IMG/VR virus record: IMGVR_UViG_3300020471_001437
Origin: an uncultured virus (IMG/VR IMGVR_UViG_3300020471_001437)
Lineage: Duplodnaviria > Heunggongvirae > Uroviricota > Caudoviricetes
Strand: one strand, 5' to 3'
Length of the DNA stretch: 56,340 nucleotides
Part shown: in pieces, positions 42,613 to 56,340 of the stretch
Numbering within the stretch: position 1 is the first letter of the stretch
Layout of the letters: the number at the start of each line of letters is the position of its first letter
Notes under the pieces: model-generated
What the model was told of the DNA's origin: nothing
The model's database searches: none
What the model saw: the letters and a program-made list of their open reading frames with translations, nothing else
Made by a program: the position numbers and the translations under genes

Positions 42613-43195
42613 GTCTACACCGAACCCTCATTACCAATCGGCGGGTTATCCGGTGATGCTCTGTACCTTCCTTCGCAAACCTTGGTCTTTCCACGTCCGC
42701 AAACAAAAGGCTTGAGAGGTCCGTCACCTGTCCCGCCGGGACACTATCGTGACCCCTCCTGCTGACATTGCGTCGGGTTATCGCCTTGTTTCCGCTTGCT
42801 TTGTCATAGAGGGCCTCATCTACCGCTGTCCATGTAATCAGCATAGGTACTGCCGAATAGACCTGCGGGGCCATTGTGAATCTGATGTTGTAGTTGTTGG
42901 ATTGAAGAATAGAATCAAAGTAACCATCTCCTACGTCTGATGTTACCTCTATTTCCCAAACACCGCCTTTCTCACCATTATTCTTGATTGTGAAGATGTC
43001 CGCTATTGGTATGTTGATTCCGGTTCGGATGTTTGTCTTGATATTGTTCCCGAAATTGAACAGTGCGAAAGGTTTGCCTCCGCGTTGGAGTTTTACGTTT
43101 GTACCGTATTCTCCTAATTTGGACCAAGGTGCGTCACCCGGCACTACACTCCGAGCGTCGGATAGTCTTGCCTTGTTCAGATAGTCCATCGTCAC
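42605..43195 (-). CDS. Hypothetical protein in the RNAP operon
   Basis: 196-aa ORF overlapping the Rpo1 start. Confidence 0.6.
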   Translation of the reverse strand: MTMDYLNKARLSDARSVVPGDAPWSKLGEYGTNVKLQRGGKPFALFNFGNNIKTNIRTGINIPIADIFTIKNNGEKGGVWEIEVTSDVGDGYFDSILQSNNYNIRFTMAPQVYSAVPMLITWTAVDEALYDKASGNKAITRRNVSRRGHDSVPAGQVTDLSSLLFADVERPRFAKEGTEHHRITRRLVMRVRCRHA

Positions 43196-43206
43196 ACCCC
43201 AAGCGT

Positions 43207-43650
43207 TCAGTCATCATAAGGGTAACCTGTGGAACAGGTATACGCAAGAAGGTCAGCAAAATCATTCAGCGGGTCAGACGAACGAGGAACCCACTCATAG
43301 GTTGGTTCAGCAGGAAGTGTCAAGTCTTCTACTCTCTCAACCAAGTGTACGAGGTTTTCTGAAGAAATCTCATATTCCCCATTAAGTCCTCGCGCTACCA
43401 CTTCGTTATCACTGTACACTCTTATCCCTTGTACTTCGCCCTCAATGCGCTTACTAACTTCTTCCAAGCATCTCAATACAGAATACATTTCTGCGTAGTT
43501 GCTGGTTTGTACTCCAATGTACTCTCCGCCACAGAACAGGATGTTGTTACCATCAGTTACAACAAAACCTATACCGCATTCTCCACGACCCTTTCCTTTT
43601 CTTTTGATAGTGGAACCGTCTGTCCAGCATTCAAGGATGTAATCACTCAT
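43207..43650 (-). CDS. rnhA: Ribonuclease HI
   Basis: WTDGS, GIG, TSNYAE, YSDNEVV, WVPR, NDFADLLA (all four acidic catalytic residues). Confidence 0.9.
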   Translation of the reverse strand: MSDYILECWTDGSTIKRKGKGRGECGIGFVVTDGNNILFCGGEYIGVQTSNYAEMYSVLRCLEEVSKRIEGEVQGIRVYSDNEVVARGLNGEYEISSENLVHLVERVEDLTLPAEPTYEWVPRSSDPLNDFADLLAYTCSTGYPYDD

Positions 43651-43897
43651 ATGAAATGACCCTCCACGTCCGTTCGGTACCCAAGGTAAGATTTCTTCTT
43701 TCAATCTGTACGATGTCGCCAACCTCCATTCCTTTACCTTCTGCACGCATACGTACAAGAACAGGGTCAGAGAAGAGAATGCGCGGCATCTTTTCGATGT
43801 CGTTTACGTTGTTGTTACGCATCATTAGTTTGGCTTGCGCCTTGGTTAGAACGGTGTGTTTTGGAACTTTGGGGTGCGCAAGCGGGTCTGCCATCAT
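43643..43897 (-). CDS. rpo5: RNA polymerase subunit Rpo5 (RpoH / Rpb5 C-terminal domain)
   Basis: HPKVPKHTVL...MPRILFSDP...GDIVQIER...WRVI. Confidence 0.9.
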   Translation of the reverse strand: MMADPLAHPKVPKHTVLTKAQAKLMMRNNNVNDIEKMPRILFSDPVLVRMRAEGKGMEVGDIVQIERRNLTLGTERTWRVISYE

Positions 43898-44894: not shown

Positions 44895-45293
44895 ATGTCC
44901 AAGGGCGAAAGAAAAGTACAGCAAATCAAGAAAGCGTTCGTTGCATTGCACGAACGGGACAGAATCAACGAAGTTTCTATCAGAGAAGTCAAGAATTGGC
45001 TTGATGATAACACGCGTGACGGCATGACTCTCATGCGACTCGCTAACTTCCTATCAAAGAGACCATCATTCAAGATGGTGCGTAGAGAGCGTAAAGTTGG
45101 TACCAATCAAACCGAATCGTTTTGGACAATGCCTGATGTAATGGTGAGCGAAGAATACACCAAGGCTGAAAACACTGCAAGAAGGATTGGTTGGGTAACT
45201 GACTACGGTAGATGCTTTGATTGCATGGAAATGAGCAGTCTGAATGCCGATGGCGTATGTTCTAAGTGCGAGTGGAAGTATCCGACGGCGTGA
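44895..45293 (+). CDS. Winged-helix DNA-binding protein with C-terminal Zn finger
   Basis: SIREVKNWL...TLMRLANFLSKRPSF...W plus CFDC...CSKC. Confidence 0.6.
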   Translation: MSKGERKVQQIKKAFVALHERDRINEVSIREVKNWLDDNTRDGMTLMRLANFLSKRPSFKMVRRERKVGTNQTESFWTMPDVMVSEEYTKAENTARRIGWVTDYGRCFDCMEMSSLNADGVCSKCEWKYPTA

Positions 45294-45300
45294 AATGTAC

Positions 45301-45345
45301 ACCACATATGTGGTTCACACACGCATGTATAATGAAGGAGGAGGA
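45301..45345 (+). promoter_or_regulatory. Promoter/operator copy 1
   Basis: 14-bp palindrome ACCACATATGTGGT; TATAAT starts 27 nt after the palindrome start; then a purine run. Confidence 0.75.
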
Positions 45346-45810
45346 CGCTCCAACGTCGCTGAGAAGCAAAGACGTGCAGGGACAAGGACCCTGCCCTTCA
45401 CAGACCAATGCGGGTTCGTTAGAGCCCGCAGTCCTCTTGAGGCTTAACTTTCGAGTTTATTCAATGCCTCTTGAGGAATCGCAAAAGTCCTACCCCTCCA
45501 AGGGTAGGCGAAAAAAAAATCTCCTAAACGTAATGGAGATTACTGTAACGAGGTGGTAGAATGGGCGACAGCCCGGGGGCCGGCCGGTGGAAACACCGCA
45601 CGGAACGCCACAATTAGCAATACATACTTGAAAAACAGGACTGCGACTACGAACCACATTTAATTGTGGCATCCCGTAAGGGATGGAGAAGAATGTGCTT
45701 GTGTTCACGCAAAGGTGTCGTCCCGGGTCATGCCGGCGATACTGACACAAGAGGAAACTCGCGGGAGTTACGGTAATCGTTGAGATTACGCGTGGATTAG
45801 CATCCACATA
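45340..45810 (+). ncRNA. Putative structured non-coding RNA
   Basis: No convincing ORF; consecutive hairpins (GCAGGG..CCCTGC, GCGGGTTC..GAGCCCGC, CCTACCC..GGGTAGG, AATCTCC..GGAGATT) directly after promoter 1. Confidence 0.45.
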
Positions 45811-46269
45811 GGCCCAATGGGTCACAGATAGGGTAAAATCCTCTTAATAGGAGGTGTAGACGTCCCTTCGGCTCGAAACACTCATGCAATTGGGTTGCCG
45901 TAAACTATGACCGTCGCCATGACTTTCAAAGGATTGTCGGAGCGGCGGAGGGGAAGATTGCACTTGCCCCACAGATATAGCGCAAACAGACTATTTACTC
46001 CGGAGGTGATTCTGTCACCACCCCAGCGAATAGGCGCGTTGACTATCCCATATGAGGTTCCGATACTTGTATGGAGCGGACGTAAGTCCAACCAAAATCG
46101 GATAGAACCACAGCAGAAACAGAGGACCTCTTCTGCACTAATTCGGTGAGAATATGGTGGTTTGATAACGTCCTCGGTGTACACAAATCTACGATTTTTG
46201 CCGGTGAAACGGTAGAATGAATAGAGGCGTGTCAGGTAGGGTTTGGGACCATTGTAATGATGGTATGAA

Positions 46270-46305
46270 GAAATTACTGATATACGGCCGTATATTGGTG
46301 ATTTC
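46270..46305 (+). terminator. Long hairpin ending the first unit
   Basis: GAAATTACTGATATAC-GGCC-GTATATTGGTGATTTC; all three non-Watson-Crick pairs are G-U on the + strand. Confidence 0.5.
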
Positions 46306-46327
46306 CTCGTAGTACAGAAAAAAGTGC

Positions 46328-46375
46328 ACCACATATGTGGTTCACACACACATGTATAATGAAGAAGGAGAGGGG
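46328..46375 (+). promoter_or_regulatory. Promoter/operator copy 2
   Basis: ACCACATATGTGGT at 46328, TATAAT at 46355. Confidence 0.75.
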
Positions 46376-46660
46376 AATAACCCAAAGAGGCCCCCCTAAG
46401 AGACACAAAACTTCTTCACAGATTGGCACCCATGATTGGGTTTTGTTGATAGTCAAGAGGGATTACGATTGAACACTTGTGTTCATGAATAGTCCAGCCG
46501 AGATGATTGAGCACTTGTGTTCTTTCATCAAAGCAACTCTTGAAAGGAGAAATTCATGATTGGGTGTCATCACAAATCAAACACAGATTTGATAGATAAC
46601 AACTAAGCCGATGGTCACTTCATACATGTATGACGTGACTGTCGGCTTTACTTTTTTTGT
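46370..46660 (+). ncRNA. Putative ~290-nt structured RNA with terminator-like end
   Basis: GGCACCCA/TGGGTGTC and TCAAGAG/CTCTTGA enclose two copies of GATTGA(A/G)CACTTGTGTTC; long G-U-containing hairpin at 46605-46648 followed by a T run. Confidence 0.55.
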
Positions 46661-46823
46661 GAAGACCATGAGTAGCGATTACTCCGTTTCGCGGATGGAA
46701 CCTATGGGCGAGAGATGGATTTCTCTACGACCCCATAGCAGGTGACGAGACGTAGGCAGAATGGAACTGCCATGGAGACATGCCTGCCCTAAACCAAATT
46801 ACCTTCACATAGTAATACAATAG

Positions 46824-46894
46824 ACTGCATCAAAGGAGGTGATATATTTGATTAGCAGTGTTTGGGGGTGTCTCAATAGCGGCGAGGCACCCCC
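46824..46894 (+). ncRNA. SD-in-loop hairpin + GC hairpin, copy 1
   Basis: ACTGCATCAAA/TTTGATTAGCAGT stem with loop GGAGGTGATATA; then GGGGGTGTCTC/GAGGCACCCCC. Confidence 0.6.
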
Positions 46895-47018
46895 TTAGAG
46901 CCTAAGACCACACATCGTAAAATATTCAGTCCCGCCAACCTTGAATATTGGCCTGCGCGCAGGTTGATGGTAGGAACAGAAAAAAGCCGGATAGAAAAGG
47001 ACCGGTTGTAGAGTTAAC

Positions 47019-47150
47019 ATGTCGAAGAAGTCAAATTCTAAGGCGGTCAAGAAAGTGGAAGTCCGAAAGGAAAGGAACAAGGCTCCGAACCTTGTTCCTT
47101 ACTGCGGTCAGTGCTTCCACGGGATTGACCACAAATGCAACTTGCAGTAG
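47019..47150 (+). CDS. Small basic Zn-binding protein (43 aa)
   Basis: MSKKSNSK...YCGQCFHGIDHKC. Confidence 0.45.
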   Translation: MSKKSNSKAVKKVEVRKERNKAPNLVPYCGQCFHGIDHKCNLQ

Positions 47151-47205
47151 CGGTTCGGAACCGAATGCTGTTTGTTACGGGACGTAATGCGTCCCACAGA
47201 GAAAC

Positions 47206-47457
47206 ATGGGTTCGCGTAAAGCAAATCCGTACGACCCTCTTTGGAAGGCCCTCCGGGCTGAAGGATTGGAGCACGTTGGCCGCAAGGCTATCGCGCTTCT
47301 TCCTCCGGCTCCGGTCGTTGCTTCTAAGGCTAAGAAAGGTGTGGAAGAGCGTGTCTCTTTCAACATCTGCCATATGTCTTGGAACTTCGATTCTTGGGCT
47401 TTGCTTGAGGAGTTCATGCCCACCCTTGTGGTGTGCGTGGCTTCCATGTTCGATTGA
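47206..47457 (+). CDS. Hypothetical protein
   Basis: Preceded by the hairpin-ACAG element at 47179. Confidence 0.5.
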   Translation: MGSRKANPYDPLWKALRAEGLEHVGRKAIALLPPAPVVASKAKKGVEERVSFNICHMSWNFDSWALLEEFMPTLVVCVASMFD

Positions 47458-47740
47458 ACATGAGTAGGGTTGTACAGAACCGCCTGTACAACAGTGTCTT
47501 CGGACACTGCGGGAGCGGTACTTCGGCTGAAATGGTAGTCAGTACGAAGGGGCACGGCGACTTCCTGCCCGCAAGTTATTTAGTCTACGAAAACGTATAC
47601 TTGCGAAAACATACCCGATGAATAAAAACAGTGCGCGAAAAACAGTACAAGTTCATCGTATCGCCGTAAGGTGGAACTGCCGTAGTGTAACAACCGGTAG
47701 ATGCGAGAAAGAGCAGGGTTAGTGCCTGCGATTACAAGAA

Positions 47741-47828
47741 ACTGTAAGCAAACATTACTACAAGGAGGTGACAATTTGTTTAGCAGTGTTCGGGGAGCGT
47801 CTCATGCCCGTGCGGCGAGGCGTTCCCC
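47741..47828 (+). ncRNA. SD-in-loop hairpin + GC hairpin, copy 2
   Basis: ACTGTAAGCAAA/TTTGTTTAGCAGT stem with AAGGAGGTGA in the loop; then GGGGAGCGTCTC/GAGGCGTTCCCC (compensatory versus copy 1). Confidence 0.6.
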
Positions 47829-47904
47829 TCAATTCGAGGCGATTAAGAATCGCCATCACGCATTCCCGTCGGGAATGCTTTTCACGGTGCTGGATAGCAC
47901 CAAC

Positions 47905-47935
47905 GGGCCACCTTCGGGTGGCCCAACTTTATTTT
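47905..47935 (+). terminator. UUCG hairpin followed by a T-rich tract
   Basis: GGGCCACC-TTCG-GGTGGCCC-AACTTTATTTT. Confidence 0.45.
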
Positions 47936-48165
47936 ACAGAGGGCCGTAAAGGCCACAGATGTCAGGAATACCTGAATATTTTCTCGCACGAAAGCGTGAT
48001 TGGCGAACCAAGGACCTCAAGCCCACTGACAATTGGGACGAGGCTACACTCCTTTGGGACGCTGGCGAATACGTGCGAATCGTGAAGCCCGGTGATACAT
48101 ATGACCGGCTTCAACAGTTCATCAACTCTCAATCTTGATGAAACAACGGCCTCATGGGCCATAGA

Positions 48166-48465
48166 ATGCAATTCAAGGATTGTATCAAGCGAGTTGTTCG
48201 TACACACGACATCGGACAGTTGCGAAAGGAGTACATCGTACTCCACGACGGTAACCGCTTTGCGTTGAAGCATGTTGACGAGTTCGTTCGTCAGTTCATT
48301 CTTTCCAACGCGAAGAAGGTATACACTGCTCACTTCGAGCACGTAGCACGCAAGAACGCGAACACTCTGCCTATGAAGCAGATGTGTTCCGCTTGCAATG
48401 CGGCTCGAAACGGGCAGTATGCCGTCGCTCGCGACACGCTGAAACGCTACGGCATTTCAGCATGA
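48166..48465 (+). CDS. Hypothetical protein
   Basis: ATG directly after hairpin-ATAGA. Confidence 0.55.
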   Translation: MQFKDCIKRVVRTHDIGQLRKEYIVLHDGNRFALKHVDEFVRQFILSNAKKVYTAHFEHVARKNANTLPMKQMCSACNAARNGQYAVARDTLKRYGISA

Positions 48466-48571
48466 TGTTGGGTGGAGACAATGTGTCACCGAGTGCTTGG
48501 GTGACAGCCACAGTTGGAGTTGAAAGACGAAGATTGTGATAAACGAGCACATTCGGACCTATGGTCCACAG

Positions 48572-48787
48572 ATGTTGTCTGAAGATGATGTTACACAGCA
48601 TGTATGCTTTCATCGCCCAATCAAGGGCGAGGCATACACAATATGCGGACACACATACACGGGAAGGCATGTACCATTTGCTAACCGAGTAAAGTGCCCG
48701 ACATGTGGCAAGACGGGAACCATTCAATTGGTTAAACCCAACTATGTGATGGAGAAGTATACGAAATTGTATTCATCTCTGTCTTGA
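48572..48787 (+). CDS. Small Zn-ribbon protein
   Basis: ICGH...CPTCG; ATG after hairpin-ACAG. Confidence 0.55.
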   Translation: MLSEDDVTQHVCFHRPIKGEAYTICGHTYTGRHVPFANRVKCPTCGKTGTIQLVKPNYVMEKYTKLYSSLS

Positions 48788-48960
48788 CCACAACCGGCCT
48801 CATGGGCCACAGAATGTGAGTTTACCCCAACACCAAGCGTTCGCCGAACAAGACGAGGAACGGAAAGAACAAAGTTGCGATAGGTAGTGACAACATAAAG
48901 GAGGTAGTCATTGCGACGCCTACTTTTTGCTGTCAATTCGGGGCGCAGACACGTTCACAG

Positions 48961-49155
48961 ATGAATTGCCCACATTGCAATGAAAACATCACGGTCCGGC
49001 TCGAAAAGCCGGGTAGGAAGGCGGCTCGACGTCGACTTCTTCGTGCTCGAAGAGCACAACGGCTATCAGAACTCCGTTCTGAAAAGCCAACTCAACCATC
49101 GGACACACCAAAGAACCCGTATATCACTCCGGTTCGCCAATCCGAGGAAGAGTAA
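48961..49155 (+). CDS. Small basic protein with CPHC
   Basis: ACAG-ATG start; Arg-rich. Confidence 0.5.
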   Translation: MNCPHCNENITVRLEKPGRKAARRRLLRARRAQRLSELRSEKPTQPSDTPKNPYITPVRQSEEE

Positions 49156-49174
49156 TCGGCCCAATGGGCCACAG

Positions 49175-49315
49175 ATGCCTCGCCGCACAAGAAAAATGCC
49201 GTATGGAGAGGGATGTCCACGGCAATGGAGACGCAAACTGCGTCGGCAAGGAAGAAGGGAAGCAAAGGATGAAATGATGGAATACACCAAGTCATCCAAA
49301 AAATCCCGGGGCTAA
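49175..49315 (+). CDS. Small Arg/Lys-rich protein
   Basis: Bounded by two hairpin-ACAG elements. Confidence 0.5.
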   Translation: MPRRTRKMPYGEGCPRQWRRKLRRQGRREAKDEMMEYTKSSKKSRG

Positions 49316-49326
49316 TGGCCCCACAG

Positions 49327-49770
49327 ATGTCTGAAGAAGTTAATTCTGAAATATCGTTAGCCGTCAATGACGGCGTCACCGTTCTTTCGAACGGTGTCAA
49401 GGTGGTGAATTCTTCACCACACCCATTTGTCTTTGACGATGGAACAGTAGTGCCACCGTGTGGCATTACGCTGAACGCTCAATTTATTGAGCGTGAACAA
49501 GGGTCTTTGCCTCTTGCCTCTCACACAGGTAAGCGTGTGACTTTCGTGGTCACGGACAAAGTCCCAACGGAGGAAGGTACGGCCTTCCTCGACGCTGTCC
49601 CTGACGGCGTCCTTGTACTCGGGTCGCTCATTGCGGCTGAAGCGTACTGCTTCCCGGTTGTTCAACCGGTCCCCACGCCGGAGACGGCTGGGCGAGGTAC
49701 TGCCCCCGCTGATAGACGGGTCCGGTCTGACCGGTTCACTCGATTTGGCCACGTGTCATTGTTTGAGTGA
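49327..49770 (+). CDS. Hypothetical viral protein
   Basis: VVNSSPHPFVFDDGTVVPP...VLGSLIAA; ATG after hairpin-ACAG. Confidence 0.6.
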   Translation: MSEEVNSEISLAVNDGVTVLSNGVKVVNSSPHPFVFDDGTVVPPCGITLNAQFIEREQGSLPLASHTGKRVTFVVTDKVPTEEGTAFLDAVPDGVLVLGSLIAAEAYCFPVVQPVPTPETAGRGTAPADRRVRSDRFTRFGHVSLFE

Positions 49771-49791
49771 GGAGACCTAATGGGTCACAGA

Positions 49792-50025
49792 ATGGCAAAA
49801 AAATACATTGCTGTACGAAACGGCCACGTTCAAAACGTGGTTTTTGTATGCACGGGTATGAACCGATGTTATTGGTACGACCACGTGTGGCCTCTCATTG
49901 AGGGAACACAATATCAGGATTTCAAGGGATTCGATTCTCTACCTGATGCTAAAGCATACGTCGGTCCCGACGTGGCTATCGCTTGGCGTCCTGACGCCGA
50001 GGATATGCTTATCGGGATGGAATAA
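49792..50025 (+). CDS. Stand-alone RNase H1 N-terminal hybrid-binding (viroplasmin-like) domain
   Basis: KKYIAVRNG...W...I.G..Y..FKGFDSLPDAKAY matches the YAVxxG..W....YKxFxxxxEAxxY pattern. Confidence 0.65.
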   Translation: MAKKYIAVRNGHVQNVVFVCTGMNRCYWYDHVWPLIEGTQYQDFKGFDSLPDAKAYVGPDVAIAWRPDAEDMLIGME

Positions 50026-50048
50026 ACAACGACCCAATGGGTCACAGA

Positions 50049-50285
50049 ATGAGCGACAAAACGTATACCGCTGACGACATTGGAAAAGAAGTGACCCTAA
50101 ATATTGATGGTGTTGCTCTCCAAGATGTAGTAGTCGAAGTTGCACTACCCGGAAGGGGAAGCATAATCGGCCCAACTTTCGTCTGCGCTCATATTTTTGC
50201 TCGTTTGACTATGATGGCCTCAATGATGCAGGCCTCCGAGCACGCCAACAAAGAGCGTGACGATTGGTCGGACGAGATGGCTTGA
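50049..50285 (+). CDS. Hypothetical protein
   Basis: Bounded by hairpin-ACAG elements. Confidence 0.55.
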   Translation: MSDKTYTADDIGKEVTLNIDGVALQDVVVEVALPGRGSIIGPTFVCAHIFARLTMMASMMQASEHANKERDDWSDEMA

Positions 50286-50661
50286 AAGCCGACCGGTCCT
50301 ATGGGCCACAGGTTCGTTGGGGTCGCGCTTAACCAGCGCGAGGTAAGTGAGTTACTGTAAGCATTGGTGATGATGTCGTAACCAACCCCAAGGTCCCACA
50401 GATGTACAAGAAGAAAGCGCAGGCCTTTGTGGTCTGCATGACTCTGATGATGTTTGGGTTTTTTACAACCCTCATCATGCAATTAGGCTAATGGCCACAG
50501 ATGGAACCACAATGGTTTTTGGACTTGCTCAACAGACGAGATGTTGAGAAGATGGTGGACTACGACCCTTTCATGGATGCAGTAGTTCACACATTCACCC
50601 ACGAACTGTGGGAATTTACCATCATACAACAATTATGATAACGGGTCAATGACCCATAGAA

Positions 50662-51231
50662 ATGTTCGATAACAAAAAAGAATATGAGTTCTACGACCCT
50701 GAATTTGGGCCGACAGAACGAACTGATTGGAAGGAGAACTACAAACAGTTCTTGAGAGACGAGGATGCGCAATACGTATACCCGACTTTCGAGAAGCCGA
50801 AGACGGTCACAATCATGAGAGGACTCCCCGGCTCGGGGAAATCTACTCACGTGCGTGACAACTTTCCGGACGCTGTTGTAGCATCTGCTGACGATTTCTT
50901 CATGGATGAAAACGGCGAGTACGTTTTCGTTCCATGGAAGATTGGTGAAGCCCACCAATCCTGTTGGACCGTTTTCATTAACGCTGTTTTCAACAGGGAA
51001 CGTAACATTGTGGTGGACAACACCAACATGTGCGGATGGGAATACTCCAACTACGTACTACTTGCACGCAAGATGGGATACGAAATTCAAATTCACACGA
51101 TGAAGGCTGGCTTAACAGACGACACCAAACTGACGACGCTTGCAAAGCGAAACTCACACGGTGTTGACTTGAAGACAATCAAATCAATGAAAGAGCGTTT
51201 CGAACCTGACTTTGGTGAGAAATACGTATAA
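50662..51231 (+). CDS. P-loop kinase (AAA_33 / N4BP2-like polynucleotide kinase)
   Basis: IMRGLPGSGKST, SADDFF, IVVDNTN, RNSHGV. Confidence 0.85.
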   Translation: MFDNKKEYEFYDPEFGPTERTDWKENYKQFLRDEDAQYVYPTFEKPKTVTIMRGLPGSGKSTHVRDNFPDAVVASADDFFMDENGEYVFVPWKIGEAHQSCWTVFINAVFNRERNIVVDNTNMCGWEYSNYVLLARKMGYEIQIHTMKAGLTDDTKLTTLAKRNSHGVDLKTIKSMKERFEPDFGEKYV

Positions 51232-51610
51232 CGGCCTTATGGGCCATAGTCTGGTAGTTACGAGGTGGCAATGCCCGCCTTAATCGTCCGAGGGTCGCCC
51301 CCTTGGGGCCTTGTAGCAACCTCGTTTGGGTGGAGGTGTCCCACCGCTTGAGTTTTCGTGCCCCCAAAGCGCGAGGATTAGGTGGGTGCTGGACACCCAA
51401 ACGTAGAGAATCCGTTATAGACGGTACGAAGCATGGCTGTTGCATGGAAGACTATCACGTACGATGTCAAGTTGCCGCAATGCTGTATGTTGGAGGACAA
51501 GTAAAGTCCTACGAAGAAGCCCTCAAAATTGCTGATAGCATGTTGAAGGCTTCACAAGCATACCAAGGTTAAGTCGACATATGTCGGCAGTTTGAGATGT
51601 GTATACTGAC

Positions 51611-51657
51611 ACCACATATGTGGTTCAGTCACACTTGTATAATGAGAGAAGGAGGGA
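51611..51657 (+). promoter_or_regulatory. Promoter/operator copy 3
   Basis: ACCACATATGTGGT at 51611, TATAAT at 51638; a related palindrome CGACATATGTCG at 51575-51586. Confidence 0.75.
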
Positions 51658-51746
51658 CCTTCTCTCATAACCGAGTGTCGCGGAATCACCAAGTTCCGAA
51701 GTCACTCGGTTATCTGTATTTTACAGAGGGCTGTAAAGCCCATAGA

Positions 51747-52004
51747 ATGCAAACACATTTTGCAAATGGATGGAGAGTTTCCATCATCTGCTCCGAATTT
51801 TCTTACGGTGGCAAAGATGGTCTCTTCGAGTTGGCCGTTCTTGATAAGAACGGTAGACTCCACTATGACAACCCCGTTTCTAACGGGGATGTCCGTGGAT
51901 GGTTAACGGAAGCCGAGGCGCAAGCCTTGGCCGACGAAGTTGCCTCTTGGCAACCTGACCAACACCCTCCTGCGCCCAAGGAATCTTGGGAAGAAGAGGA
52001 ATAA
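51747..52004 (+). CDS. Conserved small viral protein
   Basis: FANGWRVSII...SYGGKDGLFELAVL...DVRGWLT resembles a widespread uncharacterised phage family. Confidence 0.6.
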   Translation: MQTHFANGWRVSIICSEFSYGGKDGLFELAVLDKNGRLHYDNPVSNGDVRGWLTEAEAQALADEVASWQPDQHPPAPKESWEEEE

Positions 52005-52019
52005 GACCTAATGGGTCAC

Positions 52020-52690
52020 AGATTACGCGTATTGTAAATCTATGAGTGCTCCCCTCGCGGGAGTTGGTTCCGATAACTTCGGGGCCCCACGGGAAACCGT
52101 GCCTAATTGTAGTCTTACGCGGGGCACCAACACTCCGGCTTGGCCGGTTGGAGTTGGGAAGTGTCTTACCGGGGAGTAGCATGAAGACTCCCAAGGTAAG
52201 GCTTGGGTATCACCCGTTCAAAAGGGTGGTAATGCGCTGTCGAGCGCGAGATGAGAAAAGACAGGAAATTAGTTCGCCGGTAACCAACCCGGGGCTTATG
52301 GAACGTTCGCCTTCGGGCGAAGATGGTGTGCCGGGAAGAGGAAACCCGGTTGCTCTCGGAATCGTACATGCCGTACGTGGGTCTTGGCACCCACAGGATG
52401 TATGACGAAAGGGGACCCTTCGGGGATACGGAAACAGGTCATGGGCCGGGACTAACACTCTCGGGTTCCCGCTGTTTCTAACGTGCTTGCGGAGTTGATA
52501 GGCCGCAGGACACCGACTATGACGCGAAAGCCAAAAAGTCGGCACCTGACACCACCGTGAAAACGGAGCAAGTAGGCTTAACACCCCGAAAGCATTCTCA
52601 GAATCGTGAACCAGCCGGTTTAAGACCGGACGGGCCGAAAGGTATCGACAGGACTGAGGGACCGCTGAATAAGCGGGTTGGCGTTTAGTC
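52020..52690 (+). ncRNA. Putative large (~670 nt) structured RNA
   Basis: Dense hairpins with stable tetraloops (CACGG-GAAA-CCGTG at 52088, TTCGCC-TTCG-GGCGAA at 52306, CTTACC..GGTAAG, CCGACT..AGTCGG); only implausible ORFs. Confidence 0.6.
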
Positions 52691-53077
52691 ATTTACCGAA
52701 ACAAGGAATGGATACGTATCGAGCGATAATGAATTATCACCATGATATGCGTTCTGCGGTTAGTTCCGTTCCTGTGGATAACTCAAATGCTCATGGGGGA
52801 TGTAGCCGTAGAACGTTAAATCCGCCGCCAATTGAGCCTCCCCATGCCTCCCCGGAGGACACATAGAACATGATAACAGGTATCAGTGTTAGTACCGTAA
52901 TGCGGTATGCTGGTTCTACAAATAGAACCAACCAATATGCCGGAGACGGCACAGCAAGTCTGTCTGATAGCGTAAGGGCTCTCATTACAGACATGAAGAA
53001 AAGAGGCTATACGCCGGAAAATTCCAACTTATTGAAGAGAGTTTAGTTGGTTACGGTCGAGAGGCCATAGAGGTACC

Positions 53078-54490
53078 ATGTCAAACAAAAAGACTAAGGA
53101 AAACCGACAGGCTGGTAATGCCAGCCAAAAAGGCAAGGAGGTAAGTCACCTAAAGCAAGGTCGTAAGACCAAGCGGGTGAAGGGCCAAGATGCCAAAATG
53201 GGAAGTCGCGGTGGTTATGACCACGCACGACCCATCAACAACAGGAAAAGCAAGAAGCACGTTACAAGCCGAAAGGTTACTGCTTCACGCGCCGCTGGCA
53301 ACGGAAAGCCACGTGTAGAGAAAGCCCCTCCGGGCAAACTCCCACGCGGCAAGAACGGTGACGGAAAGCGGTGGGTTCCTTGGGTAGAGATTCCAAACTC
53401 TGCACAAGTACACCACTACTACTACGTCATCCGTGAGATGCTTGAAGGCGCGGTTCCTGCTGATGTGAAGGATAGGGCACACCGCCTTGGAGTTCAGCAG
53501 TTAGACCTACACGGTCCAACAGTAGGGAGTGTTGAATCGCTCTTAACGAACTCACCACGACTTCGCCGTGATTGGCGTTCAGTCGTAGGAATCCTTCGTA
53601 TGTTGCATGAAGACAACTACATTCCGGCATCCTTCGTTGAGAAGGTGCTGAAGAACCACCCCTTAACGGGTGCGAAGAGTGTACAAGTTGTGCAAGACAC
53701 GTCAGTGGTTGAGGACTTTGTCCAAGACCGTGTTCGTGCAAGCAACAAAAAGTGGGTGTCTGAAGCGAAGGCTTCGTACGCTCGCGCAATCACAAAACTG
53801 CGTGAAAACTTCAATGAGTCATTCACGGAAGAGCAACAACAGTTGTTCCCCGGACTTACAGAAGAACAATACATGCAGGCGGCCGATAAGGCTTGGGCAG
53901 GATGGCCGGAAAATCGTAAGATGCCGGTTATCGACCACGATGGACAGACATTCGTTTGTAAAAACGAACAGGCCTTCGTTACAGCCCACATGACGCGACG
54001 CGCCTACAAGGCGGCTCGCCGTCTCCCGACCCTATTCAGGATGTCGGGCGGCATATCCTACGAAGTGTTGGAGGATAACGAATTCAAACGCAAGTCTGAC
54101 TTCGTAAACATCGAATACGCAACCAAACCCGATGGTGGAGTTTGGTTCGCAGTCGTTAACGGCGGAAACAAGAAGAAGAGTGCAAACTCTCCGTTCCGCT
54201 CACAATACTGCCAAATGTCATCTCACAAAGATGTCAGGCTGTACATTGACGACATTGACACGCCGAAGTCCGCTACAACGGACCACATTCAGCGTGCACC
54301 AAGAGATGTTGCTCCTGAAATCACTGACGACATGTCTGTACCCGAGATGCTTCGGGTAATGGAAGACAGAGGATGGAGTGCTGGACGAGTCAAGGCTCGC
54401 CCGGAACGAAAGCGTCAACCGAAGAGGACACGGAAGATTCAACCCTCCCGTGGCAAACCTCGAGTCGGCCGCAAATCCCGAGAGGGATGA
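53078..54490 (+). CDS. Hypothetical protein with very basic termini (possible RNA-binding)
   Basis: 470 aa; K/R-rich N- and C-terminal tails; lies between two structured RNAs. Confidence 0.65.
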   Translation: MSNKKTKENRQAGNASQKGKEVSHLKQGRKTKRVKGQDAKMGSRGGYDHARPINNRKSKKHVTSRKVTASRAAGNGKPRVEKAPPGKLPRGKNGDGKRWVPWVEIPNSAQVHHYYYVIREMLEGAVPADVKDRAHRLGVQQLDLHGPTVGSVESLLTNSPRLRRDWRSVVGILRMLHEDNYIPASFVEKVLKNHPLTGAKSVQVVQDTSVVEDFVQDRVRASNKKWVSEAKASYARAITKLRENFNESFTEEQQQLFPGLTEEQYMQAADKAWAGWPENRKMPVIDHDGQTFVCKNEQAFVTAHMTRRAYKAARRLPTLFRMSGGISYEVLEDNEFKRKSDFVNIEYATKPDGGVWFAVVNGGNKKKSANSPFRSQYCQMSSHKDVRLYIDDIDTPKSATTDHIQRAPRDVAPEITDDMSVPEMLRVMEDRGWSAGRVKARPERKRQPKRTRKIQPSRGKPRVGRKSREG

Positions 54491-54616
54491 GTGGGGACGG
54501 GCTAATGGCCCACCCACATAGTAAATTGATTGAAGGCGAGGCCTGCGGAAACGCGGCTTCGTCTTCATTTTTTTTTTGGTGGCGACTTTAAGTACTGTCA
54601 CCTTAGAGGTAACGAC

Positions 54617-55120
54617 ATGAGTCATTACACTGAAGTGAAGTCCGCTTTCAGCATCGAACATAGAGATGAACTGATTGCGACTTGTAAGGAACTGTGGCCC
54701 GAAGCCACTGTCCTCGTCGCCGACGAAGGAAAGCACGTAAAATGCCGTGGTTGGCCGGGTCAAACCCCGCGCAACTGCGACATTGTTGTGAGATTCCGTC
54801 GACCGACAGAAGAAAAACAAGGTAACTACGACATTGGCTTCGTTAAGAGAGCCGATGGTTCTTATGCCATGATTTCGGATTGGTACGCTTGCACGTACCC
54901 CGAAGCAACCAACGACAAGGGACGTACAGGTTCCGCGGCGGTTGAAGGCATGTTGAAGCCAATCTACACCCGACGTCTGATGAAGAAGACGCTGAAAAAG
55001 AAGAAGTCCCTGAAAGGATTCAAGGACATTTCAAAGAAGGGTGACGTGATTACTCGAAAGAACAAAGACGGGAAGGAAATACGCTACGCGCGTTTGAAAT
55101 TCCGCAGGGCGGGGCTGTGA
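54617..55120 (+). CDS. DUF1257 (Ycf35-like) protein
   Basis: MSHYTEVK...DIVV...YDIGF...DGSYAMISDW. Confidence 0.7.
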   Translation: MSHYTEVKSAFSIEHRDELIATCKELWPEATVLVADEGKHVKCRGWPGQTPRNCDIVVRFRRPTEEKQGNYDIGFVKRADGSYAMISDWYACTYPEATNDKGRTGSAAVEGMLKPIYTRRLMKKTLKKKKSLKGFKDISKKGDVITRKNKDGKEIRYARLKFRRAGL

Positions 55121-55124
55121 TAGA

Positions 55125-55343
55125 ATGGCTCTGAAGAAACCTGAAATTGTCGAAGTACTTGTGCCGATTGACGACCCGAATGAGGCAATCGTTATTGACG
55201 CGCTGAATTTTGAGGGAGACGCTTGTTCTCTCGCCACCGCAGAGTTCGAGAAGGCTCTTGGTAAGGTTGAGAAGAAGAAGTTGAAACCTGAATTCAGAAA
55301 GAAAAAGGCAAAGGCTCAACGCAACATTAAGTTGGGCAATTGA
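55125..55343 (+). CDS. DUF2997-like protein
   Basis: IDALNFEGDACSLATAEFEKALG...KPEF; usual partner of DUF1257. Confidence 0.7.
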   Translation: MALKKPEIVEVLVPIDDPNEAIVIDALNFEGDACSLATAEFEKALGKVEKKKLKPEFRKKKAKAQRNIKLGN

Positions 55344-55537
55344 CCGGGGAATAGTCCCCATAGAATGAAATTTAACTGACTCGCGCGGCTTGCGGCCGCA
55401 GAGAAACGAGTAGACCCCCATACGTGGGACTATCGAAAGATAGTATGTGTCTACAAACGAAGCATGAGGTTACGAGAGAGCCGGAAGGGCGAATCTGATA
55501 GTTTCGAGTAATGCAACACACCTAATGGGTGTATAGA

Positions 55538-56104
55538 ACAAGTACAGACGGTCTTTGACAAGACACACCACATAGTAGAGGACCGCAACCGTCTGTGCGA
55601 GCAATTCCGAAAGGATTAGTGTGGTGTGTCGTTGAATGGAGCAGGTGAATCCGAAAGGTGAAACCCGTTCGCTAAACACGTGGTGGTGCATTCAGGGGTC
55701 CGGCATAACAGGGAGTAATCCGCACGTTGATGGTGTCGCAACCGGAGTGCTGTTGGCGTCTCGCAGACGCTACGCAAACTGTGAAAACCCACGGGCTCAC
55801 GTCGAGAAGCGGTTAGACCGCAGGCGGGAACCCTCGAACCGGAAACAGGAAAGACGCCTTCACTAAGTCGTGGAGGACCTGATTCCCAAGATTACAACGT
55901 GACCGTCAGGTCACTTAGGGTGTGGCTTGAGGCATTGCGAGAGTGCAATGTCACTCGATGACCACAATTAAACAACGGAGTCCCCTTACGTGGGGACGCG
56001 CTGAACCTTTGCAGGTTCACGCGCCAAACGAGTCGTACGTGTACGACGAAGGCTCCGCCGACGCAACAGACGCAACGTAGTGCCCATTAAGGGGACTCCG
56101 TTGT
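55538..56104 (+). ncRNA. Putative large (~570 nt) structured RNA with pseudoknot
   Basis: Crossing 11-bp helices 55542-55552/55588-55598 and 55562-55572/55620-55630; 17-bp helix 55972-55988/56088-56104; many hairpins. Confidence 0.7.
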
Positions 56105-56117
56105 ATGTAGTGTTGAT

Positions 56118-56219
56118 GTGTATACGGTGCACCCAGCAGGATTCCTACAATGGATGAATGACAAAGCACCAACGATTACTACTAACGTAAACTACCCTCA
56201 TTGGGGATATGAGAACAAG
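56118..56219 (+). other. Mosaic of short fragments homologous to this virus's structural genes
   Basis: 56190-56219 matches 557-586 at 26/30 nt (NYPHWGYENK); 56118-56171 encodes VYTVHPAGFLQWMNDKAP versus VYLRHPAGVPKWVLDEAP in gene 2018-3007. Confidence 0.75.
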
Positions 56220-56340
56220 TGCAATGGAAATTGCAATACCAAAAGTTCTCCAAAAGTTTGCGAAGAAACTTACCCATTATTCTCCGGACGCCGGGACCCA
56301 AGGCCTTTGGCCATCCCAAGGCGATTATAGACAGTGGATG

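What the first reader, a model, noticed from the sequence alone, without database searches (positions are those of the whole stretch)
45792..55537. About 20 covarying hairpin-A(C/T)AG elements punctuate the accessory region into cassettes
Seen: a 4-7 bp stem, usually with an AAT/TAT/CAT loop, followed at once by ACAG or ATAG and, in most cases, ATG 0-2 nt later. Examples: GGCCC-AAT-GGGCC-ACAG-ATG (49158), GGACC-TAT-GGTCC-ACAG-ATG (48555), GACCC-AAT-GGGTC-ACAGA-ATG (50031), GGGTC-AAT-GACCC-ATAGAA-ATG (50643), GGGACGT-AAT-GCGTCCC-ACAG (47179), ACACCT-AAT-GGGTGT-ATAG (55518). Stem sequences change but pairing is kept, and non-canonical pairs are G-U on the + strand, so the structure acts on the transcript-sense strand. 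Copies begin within about 10 nt of the previous stop codon (49155, 49770, 50025, 50285, 51231, 52004, 54490, 55343). They also precede non-coding units (45811, 52005, 55518). Most genes behind them lack SD motifs, unlike the rest of the genome. Inference: an RNA-processing signal that cuts a polycistronic early transcript into near-leaderless mRNAs and ncRNAs. Alternatives are an SD-independent initiation element, a hairpin promoter for the viral RNAP, or a cassette recombination site.
Basis: partly seen in the sequence, partly recalled or inferred. Interest (0 to 1): 0.9.

Follow-up and report, generated by a model that had tools for sequence, protein, structure and literature searches.

The report
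Hairpin-AYAG punctuation marks between viral genes
A marine virus that probably infects archaea places a tiny hairpin followed by AYAG in front of nearly every small gene and non-coding RNA in one long block, most likely as an RNA cutting mark that yields messages with almost no leader.

Summary
In the window, 21 of 96 plus-strand AYAG between 45.8 and 55.5 kb are abutted by a G+C-rich 4-7 bp hairpin. Shuffles give 0.94 and the rest of the plus strand gives 7 of 408.

The motif recurs in four related metagenomic virus lineages. In a complete 140-kb relative it runs on for about 45 kb, 63 copies, one strand only.

Wobble pairs are G-U on the sense strand (28, against 1 A-C). AYAG always sits at the stem base whatever the stem or loop length. 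Orthologous hairpins carry compensatory changes. Gene order is shuffled between relatives with breakpoints at the motif.

Twelve promoter-like modules place a variable leader hairpin flush against AYAG. RNA contigs start inside the motif, and RNA abundance jumps more than 1000-fold across one copy.

Best reading (0.5): a structure-anchored RNA processing or 5'-end-forming signal that gives near-leaderless mRNAs and discrete ncRNAs. A promoter or initiator role (0.25) is not excluded. No nuclease was identified.

Gene content fits the poorly known 'magrovirus group D'.

The parts
45304..45403 (+). Promoter-like module 1: palindrome core ACATATGT (45304-45311), 22-nt spacer, 66-nt leader hairpin GAAGGAGG...CCCTTC (45334-45399) flush with ACAG (45400-45403)
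45404..45811 (+). Conserved unit (92% identical to G001), bounded by ACAG on the 5' side and by its own hairpin GTGGAT-TAGC-ATCCAC (45792-45807) plus ATAG (45808-45811) on the 3' side
   Evidence: mismatch phases 11/4/17, so coding status is unsettled
45811..45827 (+). Hairpin GGCCC-AAT-GGGTC + ACAG, overlapping the G of the previous ATAG (an empty cassette)
46331..46421 (+). Promoter-like module 2: ACATATGT, 22-nt spacer, 57-nt leader hairpin (46361-46417), ACAG (46418-46421)
46421..46658 (+). Roughly 238-nt RNA seen as contigs that start in the ACAG and end in the T-run after the hairpin AGCCGA...TCGGCT
   Evidence: (X15 and X16 are one sample; depth 31-96)
46864..46898 (+). Variant: stem GGGGGTG...CACCCCC flush with TTAG. 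An RNA contig from a related strain diverges from the window just after it, at 46901
   Evidence: table 7
47179..47199 (+). GGGACGT-AAT-GCGTCCC + ACAG, ATG 6 nt later
47942..47958 (+). GGCC-GTAAA-GGCC + ACAG + ATG, preceded by a terminator-like hairpin and T-run (47905-47935)
48148..48164 (+). GGCCT-CAT-GGGCC + ATAG, ATG 1 nt later
48555..48571 (+). GGACC-TAT-GGTCC + ACAG + ATG
48796..48812 (+). GGCCT-CAT-GGGCC + ACAG, no ORF behind it
49158..49174 (+). GGCCC-AAT-GGGCC + ACAG + ATG. Best covariance-model score (34.9 bits)
49308..49326 (+). GGGGCT-AAT-GGCCCC + ACAG + ATG
49774..49790 (+). GACCT-AAT-GGGTC + ACAG, ATG 1 nt later
50031..50047 (+). GACCC-AAT-GGGTC + ACAG, ATG 1 nt later
50295..50311 (+). 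GGTCC-TAT-GGGCC + ACAG. Homology to two relatives ends exactly at its G. It is followed by a roughly 90-nt non-coding unit that ends in a second ACAG-ATG (50398-50404)
50486..50500 (+). GGCT-AAT-GGCC + ACAG + ATG. The stop codon of the upstream ORF lies in the loop
50643..50659 (+). GGGTC-AAT-GACCC + ATAG, ATG 2 nt later (P-loop kinase-like gene 50662-51231)
51233..51249 (+). GGCCT-TAT-GGGCC + ATAG before a non-coding unit. The orthologue in G001 is GGTCC-AAT-GGACC (compensatory change)
51614..51670 (+). Promoter-like module 3: ACATATGT, 22-nt spacer, 23-nt hairpin, tail ATAA instead of AYAG, then a hairpin and T-run
51728..51745 (+). GGGCT-GTAA-AGCCC + ATAG, ATG 1 nt later
52005..52021 (+). 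GACCT-AAT-GGGTC + ACAG, starting 0 nt after the upstream stop codon. RNA depth is 0 in the bin upstream and 1468-2153 in the bin downstream
52022..52866 (+). Roughly 850-nt non-coding unit, about 80% identical to G001, very abundant in metatranscriptome contigs, no Rfam match
53055..53070 (+). GGTC-GAGA-GGCC + ATAG, ATG 7 nt later (470-aa ORF). RNA contigs start at 53,081-53,088
54491..54521 (+). Two-tier hairpin GTGGG-GAC-GGGCT-AAT-GGCCC-A-CCCAC flush with ATAG, directly after the stop codon of the 470-aa ORF
54578..54606 (+). Variant: stem GGTG...CACC flush with TTAG, after a hairpin and T10 terminator-like site. ATG at 54617
55346..55363 (+). GGGGA-ATAG-TCCCC + ATAG. The orthologue in G001 is GGAGGA-ATA-TCCTCC
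55518..55536 (+). ACACCT-AAT-GGGTGT + ATAG before a non-coding stretch. An abundant RNA contig starts at 55,575, inside a further ATAG (55573-55576)
55899..55918 (+). Variant GTGACC-GTCA-GGTCAC + TTAG. The aligned part of an RNA contig starts at its G (55,918)

Best explanation
The hairpin-AYAG element is an RNA-level punctuation signal read on the sense transcript. Any stem whose 3' strand ends in C, followed at once by single-stranded A-Y-A-G(-A), marks where one RNA unit ends and the next begins. The stem can be a short 4-9 bp hairpin or a long-range stem.

Most likely a structure-specific endoribonuclease, viral or host and not identified here, cuts within AYA. The upstream unit then keeps a protective 3' hairpin. 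The downstream unit starts 0-2 nt before its AUG, as a leaderless-type mRNA suited to an archaeal host, or at the first base of a non-coding RNA.

Primary transcripts come from a few promoter-like modules, and their own leader hairpin supplies the first cutting mark. Because about 100 near-identical short marks lie between genes, they also act as points of recombination, which has shuffled the genes as cassettes.

Shown: the motif, its strand and region specificity, sense-strand pairing with covariation, stem-base anchoring, breakpoints at the motif, and RNA contigs that start in the motif.
Inferred: cleavage itself, its exact position, the enzyme, and leaderless translation.
For: 1. Enrichment. 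21 of 96 AYAG (window) and 63 of 385 (G001) carry the hairpin, against 0.94 and 2.84 in shuffles and 1-3% elsewhere or on the other strand. The covariance model places 54 of 56 hits on the plus strand inside the accessory blocks.

2. Pairing is selected on the sense strand. There are 51 perfect 5-bp stems. Among 42 stems with one non-Watson-Crick pair, 28 are G-T/T-G and 1 is A-C/C-A. Away from the loop-closing pair the count is 15 against 0.

3. Orthologous hairpins, defined by flanking homology, change by compensation: GTGGAT/ATCCAC to GTGGTT/AACCAC to GTGGCTT/AAGCCAC; GGCCT/GGGCC to GGTCC/GGACC; GGGGA/TCCCC to GGAGGA/TCCTCC; GACCT/GGGTC to GGCCC/GGGCC.

4. AYAG is flush with the stem base for stems of 4 bp (33 copies), 5 (70), 6 (20) and 7-9 (6), and for loops of 3-5 nt: 129 copies at offset 0 against 11 at offset -1. 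The same holds for 37 units of 41-43 nt in G001, whose terminal stem GAGC/GCTC or GAACC/GGTTC starts at the G of the previous AYAG.

5. In 12 of 12 promoter-like modules from five genomes the leader starts exactly 22 nt after the palindrome and folds so that its first and last bases pair. In 10 of 12 the stem is flush with AYAG, while leader length varies from 23 to 117 nt. Conservation between window and G001 starts at the stem base and ACAG, and the leader interior is unalignable.

6. RNA contigs. One starts at 46,421 inside ACAG, about 60 nt downstream of the leader start, and ends at a T-run. Others start at 55,575 inside ATAG and at 55,918 inside TTAG. Depth is 0 in the bin before the copy at 52,005 and 1468-2153 in the bin after it. 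None of the 31 listed pieces bridges a strong copy.

7. The motif precedes both genes and non-coding units, so its role is not confined to translation.

8. SD-like motifs are rarer behind it: 3 of 9 and 14 of 52, against 26 of 51 and 40 of 81 elsewhere.
Against: - No cleavage is shown. The RNA evidence is assembled contigs, which cannot prove ends. X15 and X16 are one sample, and 51 of 82 laid pieces were not listed.
- Contigs for the 470-aa gene start 11-18 nt after its ATAG, not in it.
- No candidate nuclease was found. Cas6 and Csy4 Pfam models gave no match in the complete relative.
- Three copies lie just after terminator-like hairpin and T-run sites (47,905; 51,700; 54,540). If those terminators are efficient, the genes behind them need their own promoter.
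- In G001 the sequences after ATAG fall into a few conserved classes (AGCAAAAC, AACCGAACC), and the 41-43-nt units have conserved inner blocks about 22-24 nt upstream of the next AYAG without covariation. That pattern looks promoter-like.
- The two halves of the block prefer different tails: ACAG in 12 of 20 copies against ATAG in 41 of 43. This resembles temporal promoter classes.
- The covariation count on alignment A3 is circular, because its rows were chosen for pairing.
Confidence: 0.5

Rival explanations
1. Promoter or initiator, or a composite terminator-initiator, for a virus-specific transcription machine. The virus encodes an Rpb1/A-type largest RNA polymerase subunit. On this reading transcription starts in or just after AYAG (Y at -1, A at +1) at every gene, and the hairpin either ends the upstream transcript or is recognised as a folded non-template strand.
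For: - The window encodes a 1646-aa protein with Rpb1 domains 1-5, so a private transcription specificity is plausible.
- YA in AYAG fits the usual pyrimidine(-1)/purine(+1) start rule (recalled).
- With a 5-bp stem and a 3-nt loop, the A after AYAG lies 11 nt from the loop centre, the geometry recalled for phage N4 hairpin promoters.
- RNA contigs start in the motif.
- Some copies follow terminator-like sites.
- Conserved sequence classes follow ATAG, and conserved A/T-rich blocks lie about 22-24 nt upstream of AYAG in the 41-43-nt units of G001.
- The two halves of the block prefer different tails.
Against: - No conserved sequence lies upstream of the simple hairpins. AYAGA alone carries too little information for a promoter.
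- Wobble polarity (15 against 0) puts the fold on the sense strand, not on the template strand as in N4.
- AYAG is measured from the stem base, not from the loop, for stems of 4-9 bp and for loops up to about 100 nt.
- 10 of 12 promoter-like modules already sit 54-117 nt upstream of an AYAG, with a leader hairpin that would serve no purpose for a promoter.
- No B-type subunit was found in the complete relative (0 matches to PF00562).
- Genes behind the best-scoring copies (48.2-50.9 kb) have no RNA contigs.
Confidence: 0.25
2. An uncut RNA element that acts in place. The hairpin-AYAG-AUG would be an SD-independent translation start or a termination-reinitiation device, and the hairpin would stabilise RNA ends.
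For: - The stop codon lies 0-9 nt before the hairpin.
- ATG follows AYAG within 0-2 nt in 51 of 128 copies.
- SD-like motifs are scarce behind the motif.
- Pairing is on the sense strand.
Against: - 62 of 128 copies have no ATG-ORF within 12 nt.
- Copies flank non-coding RNAs and follow promoter modules.
- RNA contigs start in the motif, and abundance changes more than 1000-fold across one copy.
Confidence: 0.1
3. Primarily a DNA recombination site. On this reading a folded single strand is recognised by a recombinase, as with integron attC sites, or the motif is simple microhomology, and either way it builds the cassette array.
For: - Gene order differs between five lineages at the level of single genes, and many homology ends fall 0-6 nt from the end of AYAG.
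- Contigs from related strains diverge from the window right after ...CCAC-ATAG-GA (46,901) and ...TTT-ACAG (56,264) (table 7).
- Sequence varies while structure is kept.
- The genome encodes serine recombinases.
Against: - The tight coupling to start codons and to RNA ends is not needed for recombination.
- Homology ends fall on either side of the hairpin without a fixed crossover point.
- The hairpins are far smaller than any known folded recombination site (recalled).
- Shuffling is an expected by-product of about 100 dispersed short repeats, as reported for T4 PeSLs (abstract of PMC4122927).
Confidence: 0.07

Closest known systems
PeSL (promoter-early stem-loop) cassettes of T4-type phages (abstract of PMC4122927; PMC2839356 seen in the search listing only)
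   Same: Short intergenic motifs that contain a stem-loop, repeated between small genes of unknown function in hyperplastic regions. They serve as points of exchange that shuffle genes between related phages.
   Different: PeSLs are composite terminator plus sigma-70 early promoter sequences of bacteria and are conserved in sequence. Here only the structure plus AYAG is kept, no promoter consensus lies beside the simple hairpins, and the gene content points to an archaeal host.
Cas6-family processing of CRISPR repeats (recalled)
   Same: A small G+C-rich hairpin with a cut at the 3' base of the stem, giving products with a defined short 5' tag and a 3' hairpin. The cut is anchored at the junction between paired and unpaired RNA.
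   Different: CRISPR repeats within an array are identical in sequence. Here the stems differ from copy to copy. The units are genes and ncRNAs, not spacers. No Cas6 or Csy4 domain was found in the complete relative.
tRNA punctuation of mitochondrial transcripts, and tRNA-like elements cut by tRNase Z or RNase P (recalled)
   Same: Structured RNA between genes is the cutting mark, and the resulting mRNAs are leaderless.
   Different: The marks here are 11-19-nt hairpins, too small to mimic the acceptor and T arms. ARAGORN and Rfam find no tRNA in the block.
Hairpin promoters of phage N4 virion RNA polymerase (recalled)
   Same: A 5-7 bp stem with a 3-nt loop. The start lies about 11 nt from the loop centre, which here would be the A of ATG.
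   Different: N4 hairpins form on the template strand, number three per genome, and are read by a T7-like enzyme. Here the wobble polarity is sense-strand, the distance is set from the stem base, and there are 63 or more copies per genome.
Integron attC sites (recalled)
   Same: Sites between mobile gene cassettes whose sequence varies while the folded structure is conserved.
   Different: attC sites are 57-141 nt with defined boxes and extrahelical bases, and they are cut by a tyrosine integrase. None of this is seen here.
RNase III sites between phage T7 genes, and the Mimivirus 'hairpin rule' (recalled)
   Same: Intergenic hairpins define transcript ends and leave a stabilising 3' hairpin.
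   Different: Those hairpins are much longer. There is no AYAG-type single-stranded tail and no coupling to the start codon.

Membership tests
T4-type PeSL | Stem-loop joined to a sigma-70-type early promoter consensus | tested here: not met
   Sigma-70-like sites number 10, against 10.1 in shuffles. No conserved block flanks the simple hairpins.
T4-type PeSL | Motif lies at insertion, deletion and replacement junctions between related genomes | tested here: met
   Homology ends fall 0-6 nt from the end of AYAG in many pairs, and gene order is shuffled. Loose ends of related strains support this (table 7).
CRISPR repeat / Cas6 site | Near-identical direct repeats that separate spacers of similar length | tested here: not met
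   Stem sequences differ between copies. Units range from 16 nt to more than 1.4 kb.
CRISPR repeat / Cas6 site | A Cas6-family nuclease encoded nearby | tested here: not met
   PF01881 and PF09618 give 0 matches in the complete 140-kb relative. A host-encoded enzyme was not testable.
N4-type hairpin promoter | Hairpin forms on the template strand | tested here: not met
   G-T wobble appears on the sense strand only, 15 against 0 away from the loop-closing pair.
N4-type hairpin promoter | Start site at a fixed distance from the loop | tested here: not met
   AYAG is flush with the stem base for stems of 4-9 bp and for loops from 3 nt to about 100 nt.
N4-type hairpin promoter | A T7-like single-subunit virion RNA polymerase | tested here: inconclusive
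   The large proteins of G001 have no Pfam, PHROG or Atlas match. No fold search was run.
Integron attC | A 57-141-nt imperfect palindrome with R and L boxes and an adjacent tyrosine integrase | tested here: not met
   Elements are 15-21 nt. Only serine recombinase domains were seen.
Intrinsic (bacterial-type) terminator | G+C-rich hairpin followed by a T-run | tested here: not met
   The tail is AYAG-A, not T-rich. Separate hairpin and T-run sites exist at 46,605-46,659, 47,905-47,935 and 54,533-54,576.
Any Rfam family | Match to a curated covariance model | tested here: not met
   Only the tRNA at 30,177 passes the gathering threshold. In 45,200-56,340 the only hit at E<=1 is one sub-threshold chance match.
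Magrovirus 'group D' (the genome, not the motif) | Family B DNA polymerase, thermosome, resolvase and RNA polymerase subunit A together, in marine samples | tested here: met
   (PolB, Cpn60_TCP1 at 463 bits, Resolvase, Rpb1 domains 1-5). Marine runs. Description read in passages of PMC5434244. No phylogeny was run.

The most novel reading that the evidence does not exclude
Hairpin-AYAG is a structure-specific start signal for an archaeal-type multisubunit RNA polymerase that the virus reprogrammes with its own A subunit. A folded sense strand at the stem base would position initiation so that transcripts begin at or 1-2 nt before the AUG. This would be the first hairpin promoter known for a multisubunit polymerase, and the first private promoter class of an archaeal virus. 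The two tail and loop classes (ACAG with NAT loops; ATAG with 4-5-nt loops) would then be temporal classes.
Probability: 0.2. Interest if true: 0.9.

Novelty: new variant of a known kind. Interest (0 to 1): 0.75.

Why it matters
- If the mark is cut, this virus turns long transcripts into leaderless messages with a 15-20-nt tag. That would explain how dozens of SD-less genes are expressed in an archaeal host.
- It would also imply an unknown nuclease that reads only a stem base plus AYAG. Such a tag and enzyme pair would be a compact tool for operon engineering.
- If the mark is instead a start signal, it would be a new promoter type tied to a virus-encoded polymerase subunit.
- Either way, the motif gives a simple handle to annotate gene starts, small RNAs and cassette boundaries in an abundant but uncultured group of ocean viruses. 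It also shows how their accessory genes are shuffled.

Tried and rejected
- No whole genome is held for the window.
- Close DNA relatives among deposited phages: none.
- Relatives of the 470-aa cassette protein in viral contigs: none.
- The pattern GGCCN{3,5}GGCCAYAGATG in viral contigs returned 120 or more loci, nearly all single chance matches. They were not used.
- The RNA polymerase protein in viral contigs found only G001.
- The thermosome search of genome contigs gave 32-46% identity to many archaeal (and a few bacterial) lineages and no host assignment. Scanning host genomes with model R1 was therefore not possible.
- Earlier findings of this scan: nothing by place, words or sequence.
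- Rfam at a relaxed threshold: no family for the non-coding units.
- Cas6 and Csy4 models: no match in G001. Rpb2 domain 6: no match.
- PHROGs and the protein Atlas gave nothing for the giant proteins of G001.
- PDB sequence search with the kinase-like protein: no hit.
- RNAalifold on the 41-43-nt units predicts only the terminal stem.
- A bulge-helix-bulge (archaeal splicing endonuclease) reading was considered and dropped, because the two AYA linkers lie on the same side of the 4-bp stem. A self-cleaving ribozyme reading was dropped because the element is too small.
- Linkage of each hairpin to its upstream gene was examined. Homology ends fall on both sides of the hairpin, so no claim is made.
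- RNA cover: 48,175-50,899 and 51,445-51,989 had no contigs in any of the four runs. This is no evidence of silence.
- Chance that 2 of about 12 high-depth contig starts fall in stem-abutted motifs: my rough estimate is about 0.01. It was not computed by a tool.

Full report
WHAT THE WINDOW IS

The window aligns collinearly, at 65-80% nucleotide identity, with the first 60 kb of a complete 140,336-bp viral contig with direct terminal repeats (G001). The window encodes:
- a family B DNA polymerase;
- a group II chaperonin (Cpn60_TCP1, 463 bits);
- a serine recombinase (resolvase);
- tail and head proteins;
- a tRNA-Arg(GCG);
- a 1646-aa protein with Rpb1 domains 1-5.

G001 adds an MCM helicase, two archaeo-eukaryotic primases and RNase H. 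Runs that hold the sequence are marine.

This gene set is the one Philosof et al. 2017 describe for 'magrovirus group D' of Marine Group II archaea, for which they had no closed genome (passages read). A 2025 paper still calls group D 'MCP-lacking' (passages read). I ran no phylogeny. The archaeal host is an inference from gene content and from that paper.

THE OBSERVATION

The quoted examples are in place. I scanned for stems of at least 4 bp (G-U allowed, at least 3 G-C pairs), with a loop of 3-5 nt, flush with A[CT]AG.
- Window: 21 of 96 plus-strand AYAG in 45,791-55,540 carry such a hairpin. The opposite strand gives 3 of 47. The rest of the window gives 7 of 408 and 4 of 300. Dinucleotide shuffles give 0.94 +/- 1.0, with a maximum of 4 in 200.
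- G001: 63 of 385 in 46.9-91.5 kb, against 8 of 709 elsewhere on that strand and 2.84 +/- 1.67 in shuffles.
- Of all 256 tetramers that follow such hairpins, ATAG (57) and ACAG (27) rank first.

A covariance model built from 49 copies with a 5-bp stem and 3-nt loop (A3, R1) returned 56 hits at E<=1 over 196 kb searched on both strands. Of these, 54 are on the plus strand inside the accessory blocks and 2 are on the minus strand. None fall in the structural or late parts of either genome. Twenty-five hits were training copies.

The block therefore does not stop at 55.5 kb. In the complete relative it runs for about 45 kb.

RELATIVES

A metagenome scan with the polymerase subunit gave 20 loci. 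Every locus that reaches far enough upstream carries the motif on the strand opposite the polymerase gene, starting about 3.4 kb from it with the same conserved first hairpin. The copy counts are L137 (the G001 sequence) 12, L138 8, L143 and L144 19 each, L147 17, and L146 8. With the window, this makes five lineages.

THE FOLD IS SELECTED ON THE SENSE STRAND

For 5-bp stems flush with AYAG in the five lineages:
- 51 stems are perfect;
- 42 have one non-Watson-Crick pair, of which 28 are G-T/T-G and 1 is A-C/C-A;
- away from the loop-closing pair the count is 15 against 0;
- the antisense strands give 1 perfect and 6 imperfect stems in all.

The pair counts on A3 show 33 cells with changes on both sides, against 4.8 in shuffles. 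That set was chosen for pairing, so I give it little weight.

Orthologous hairpins defined by flanking homology give non-circular support. The changes seen are GTGGAT/ATCCAC, GTGGTT/AACCAC and GTGGCTT/AAGCCAC; GGCCT/GGGCC to GGTCC/GGACC; GGGGA/TCCCC to GGAGGA/TCCTCC; and GACCT/GGGTC to GGCCC/GGGCC. Four further pairs differ only by a change to or from G-U, and none loses pairing.

ANATOMY

- AYAG is flush with the stem base whatever the stem length: 4 bp in 33 copies, 5 in 70, 6 in 20 and 7-9 in 6. The same holds for loops of 3 nt (74), 4 (38) and 5 (17). Offset 0 has 129 cases and offset -1 has 11.
- The last stem base is C and the base after AYAG is A in 103 of 128 copies.
- Nothing is conserved upstream of the hairpin.
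- ATG with an ORF of 25 aa or more follows within 0-2 nt in 51 of 128 copies (window 10 of 21), within 3-12 nt in 15, and not at all in 62.
- Stop codons lie 0-9 nt before the hairpin in the seven listed copies that the scan covers, and directly abut it at 54,490; in one copy (50,486) the stop lies in the loop.
- Variants exist with a TTAG tail (46,895; 54,603; 55,915) and with two-tier or long-range stems (54,491-54,521; the leaders below).

PROMOTER-LIKE MODULES

Three sites in the window (45,304; 46,331; 51,614) and nine in the relatives share a palindrome core ACATATGT.
- In 12 of 12, a leader starts exactly 22 nt after the core.
- The minimum-energy fold of that leader pairs its first bases (GAAGGAG) with its last (CTCCTTC).
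- In 10 of 12 this stem is flush with ACAG or ATAG. In the other 2 the tail is ATAA.
- Leader length varies from 23 to 117 nt.

Between window and G001, the leader interior cannot be aligned. The stem base, ACAG and the following 408 nt are 92% identical, and that identity ends exactly at the next hairpin-ATAG.

The fixed point is therefore the first base of the hairpin, most simply a transcription start. AYAG lies at a variable distance downstream. That the palindrome is a TATA-like element about 27 nt upstream of that base is my inference.

RNA

Four marine metatranscriptome runs were laid as contigs (X15 and X16 are one sample).
- The polymerase region 40,000-43,800 has depth 0.
- The non-coding unit after the mark at 52,005 has depth 1468-2153, while the bin holding the gene just before it has depth 0.
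- A 238-nt RNA starts at 46,421, inside the ACAG of module 2. That is about 60 nt after the predicted leader start. It ends in the T-run of a terminator-like hairpin at 46,658.
- Another contig starts at 55,575, inside ATAG 55,573-55,576.
- The aligned part of another starts at 55,918, the G of a hairpin-TTAG.
- Contigs for the 470-aa gene start at 53,081-53,088, which is 11-18 nt after its ATAG.
- None of the 31 listed pieces bridges a strong copy.
- 51 pieces were not listed, and contigs cannot prove ends.

CASSETTES

Homologous genes sit in different orders in the five lineages. Many homology ends lie 0-6 nt from the end of AYAG in both partners, for example 45,811, 50,311 (in two relatives) and 50,501 (in three relatives). 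Two RNA contigs from related strains diverge from the window immediately after '...CCAC-ATAG-GA' (46,901) and '...TTT-ACAG' (56,264) (table 7). The cassette genes are small and almost all lack a Pfam family: 11 of 14 gave no hit.

BEYOND THE WINDOW

In G001 the second half of the block (60-91.5 kb) uses ATAG in 41 of 43 copies, with 4-5-nt loops. It often inserts one or two units of 41-43 nt between the simple hairpin and the ATG. There are about 23 'AACCGAACC...GGTTC' units and about 15 'AGCAAAAC...GCTC' units.
- Their terminal stem (GAACC/GGTTC or GAGC/GCTC) begins with the G of the previous AYAG and is flush with the next AYAG.
- Their interior has conserved blocks without covariation.
- They obey the stem-base rule, but their inner blocks look like protein-binding or promoter elements.

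HOW IT MOST LIKELY WORKS

Four things point to a signal read on the transcript at the junction between a stem and a single-stranded AYAG: the sense-strand fold, the anchoring at the stem base, the leader hairpins behind promoter-like modules, and the RNA ends and abundance steps. I take it to be a cutting mark (confidence 0.5).

The cut would lie in AYA, because the G is the first base of the next stem in tandem units and the contigs start at AG or G. The upstream product would keep a 3' hairpin. The downstream product would start 0-2 nt before AUG. This suits leaderless initiation, which is common in archaea (recalled), and fits the lower SD frequency behind the marks: 3 of 9 and 14 of 52, against 26 of 51 and 40 of 81 elsewhere.

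The enzyme is unknown. A P-loop kinase-like gene lies in the block (50,662-51,231), and a HAD-PNKP/NUDIX protein is encoded in G001. Both are compatible with RNA end-healing, but that is speculation.

RIVALS

The main rival is a start signal for a virus-modified polymerase (0.25). In its favour are the virus-encoded A subunit, the YA start rule, copies placed behind terminator-like sites, and the conserved sequences after ATAG. Against it are the lack of any upstream consensus, the sense-strand wobble, the stem-base anchoring and the redundant leader modules.

An uncut translation or stability element (0.1) fails to explain the copies before ncRNAs and the RNA steps. A recombination site as the primary function (0.07) does not explain the coupling to start codons. 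Shuffling is better seen as a by-product, as described for T4 PeSLs (abstract read).

NOVELTY

My five literature searches, over a library that lacks most subscription journals, turned up no description of this motif. No Rfam family matches it. It works like known intercistronic processing hairpins and like PeSL cassettes, but it fails the membership tests of each. I rate it a new variant of a known kind.

Noticed in passing
window 37672-42612 (-): A virus-encoded 1646-aa largest RNA polymerase subunit (Rpb1 domains 1-5). The complete 140-kb relative has no detectable second-largest subunit (PF00562: 0 matches). The virus may supply only one subunit of a hybrid enzyme, or its partner may be too divergent to detect.
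   Followed up: partly
window 52022-52866 (+): A roughly 850-nt non-coding unit. Its substitutions against G001 are spread evenly over codon phases (56/60/52), with many indels that are not multiples of 3. Depth in metatranscriptome contigs is 1,400-3,200, and it has no Rfam match. It is probably a new large viral ncRNA.
   Followed up: partly
window 45404-45811 (+): A unit 92% identical to G001, far above neighbouring genes (65-80%), bounded exactly by ACAG and hairpin-ATAG. Mismatch phases of 11/4/17 leave open whether part of it is coding.
   Followed up: partly
window 55575-55843 and 55918-56293 (+): Two further abundant RNAs in non-coding sequence (depth 172-311 in three samples, and 28-108). 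Both lie behind AYAG or TTAG marks.
   Followed up: no
G001 53.4-91.5 kb (L007-L009): Two families of fixed-length 41-43-nt intergenic units (about 23 'AACCGAACC...GGTTC' and about 15 'AGCAAAAC...GCTC'). They have a conserved central G-W-A-W-T-R-C-A block, a terminal stem and variable segments of about 8 nt. They could be small RNAs or middle-gene promoters.
   Followed up: partly
window 45304, 46331, 51577/51614; also in G001, L138, L143, L147: A palindrome CCACATATGTGG followed 22 nt later by GAAGGAGG. It occurs only in the first part of the accessory block. It is probably an operator or TATA-like promoter element that could work in both directions.
   Followed up: partly
window 46828-46900 and 47755-47830 (+): Two copies of a strong Shine-Dalgarno sequence (AAGGAGGTGA) followed by TTG and a conserved short reading frame beginning ...SSV. 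They look like paired mini-ORFs or leader peptides in otherwise non-coding stretches.
   Followed up: no
window 30177-30251 (+): A tRNA-Arg with anticodon GCG. This anticodon is usual in archaea rather than bacteria (recalled), which fits an archaeal host.
   Followed up: no
window 50662-51231 (+); G001 120396-123200: A P-loop kinase-like protein (AAA_33; PHROG polynucleotide kinase / RNA ligase families) inside the cassette block. G001 also encodes a 934-aa HAD-PNKP phosphatase plus NUDIX protein. Together they may be RNA end-modifying enzymes.
   Followed up: no
window 54617-55343 (+): An adjacent DUF1257 and DUF2997 gene pair. They are joined by GTGATAGAATG, where the stop codon overlaps an ATAG with no clear hairpin. 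RNA contigs bridge this junction.
   Followed up: no
G001 52046-53083 (L007:12046-13083): A transposase-like gene (phrog_4285, E 2e-29) sits inside the accessory block of the relative.
   Followed up: no
window 49157-49171, 49307-49323, 50029-50045, 48146-48162 (-): Read on the minus strand, several mark hairpins are followed by T-rich runs and score as terminator-like sites. They might also stop antisense transcription.
   Followed up: no
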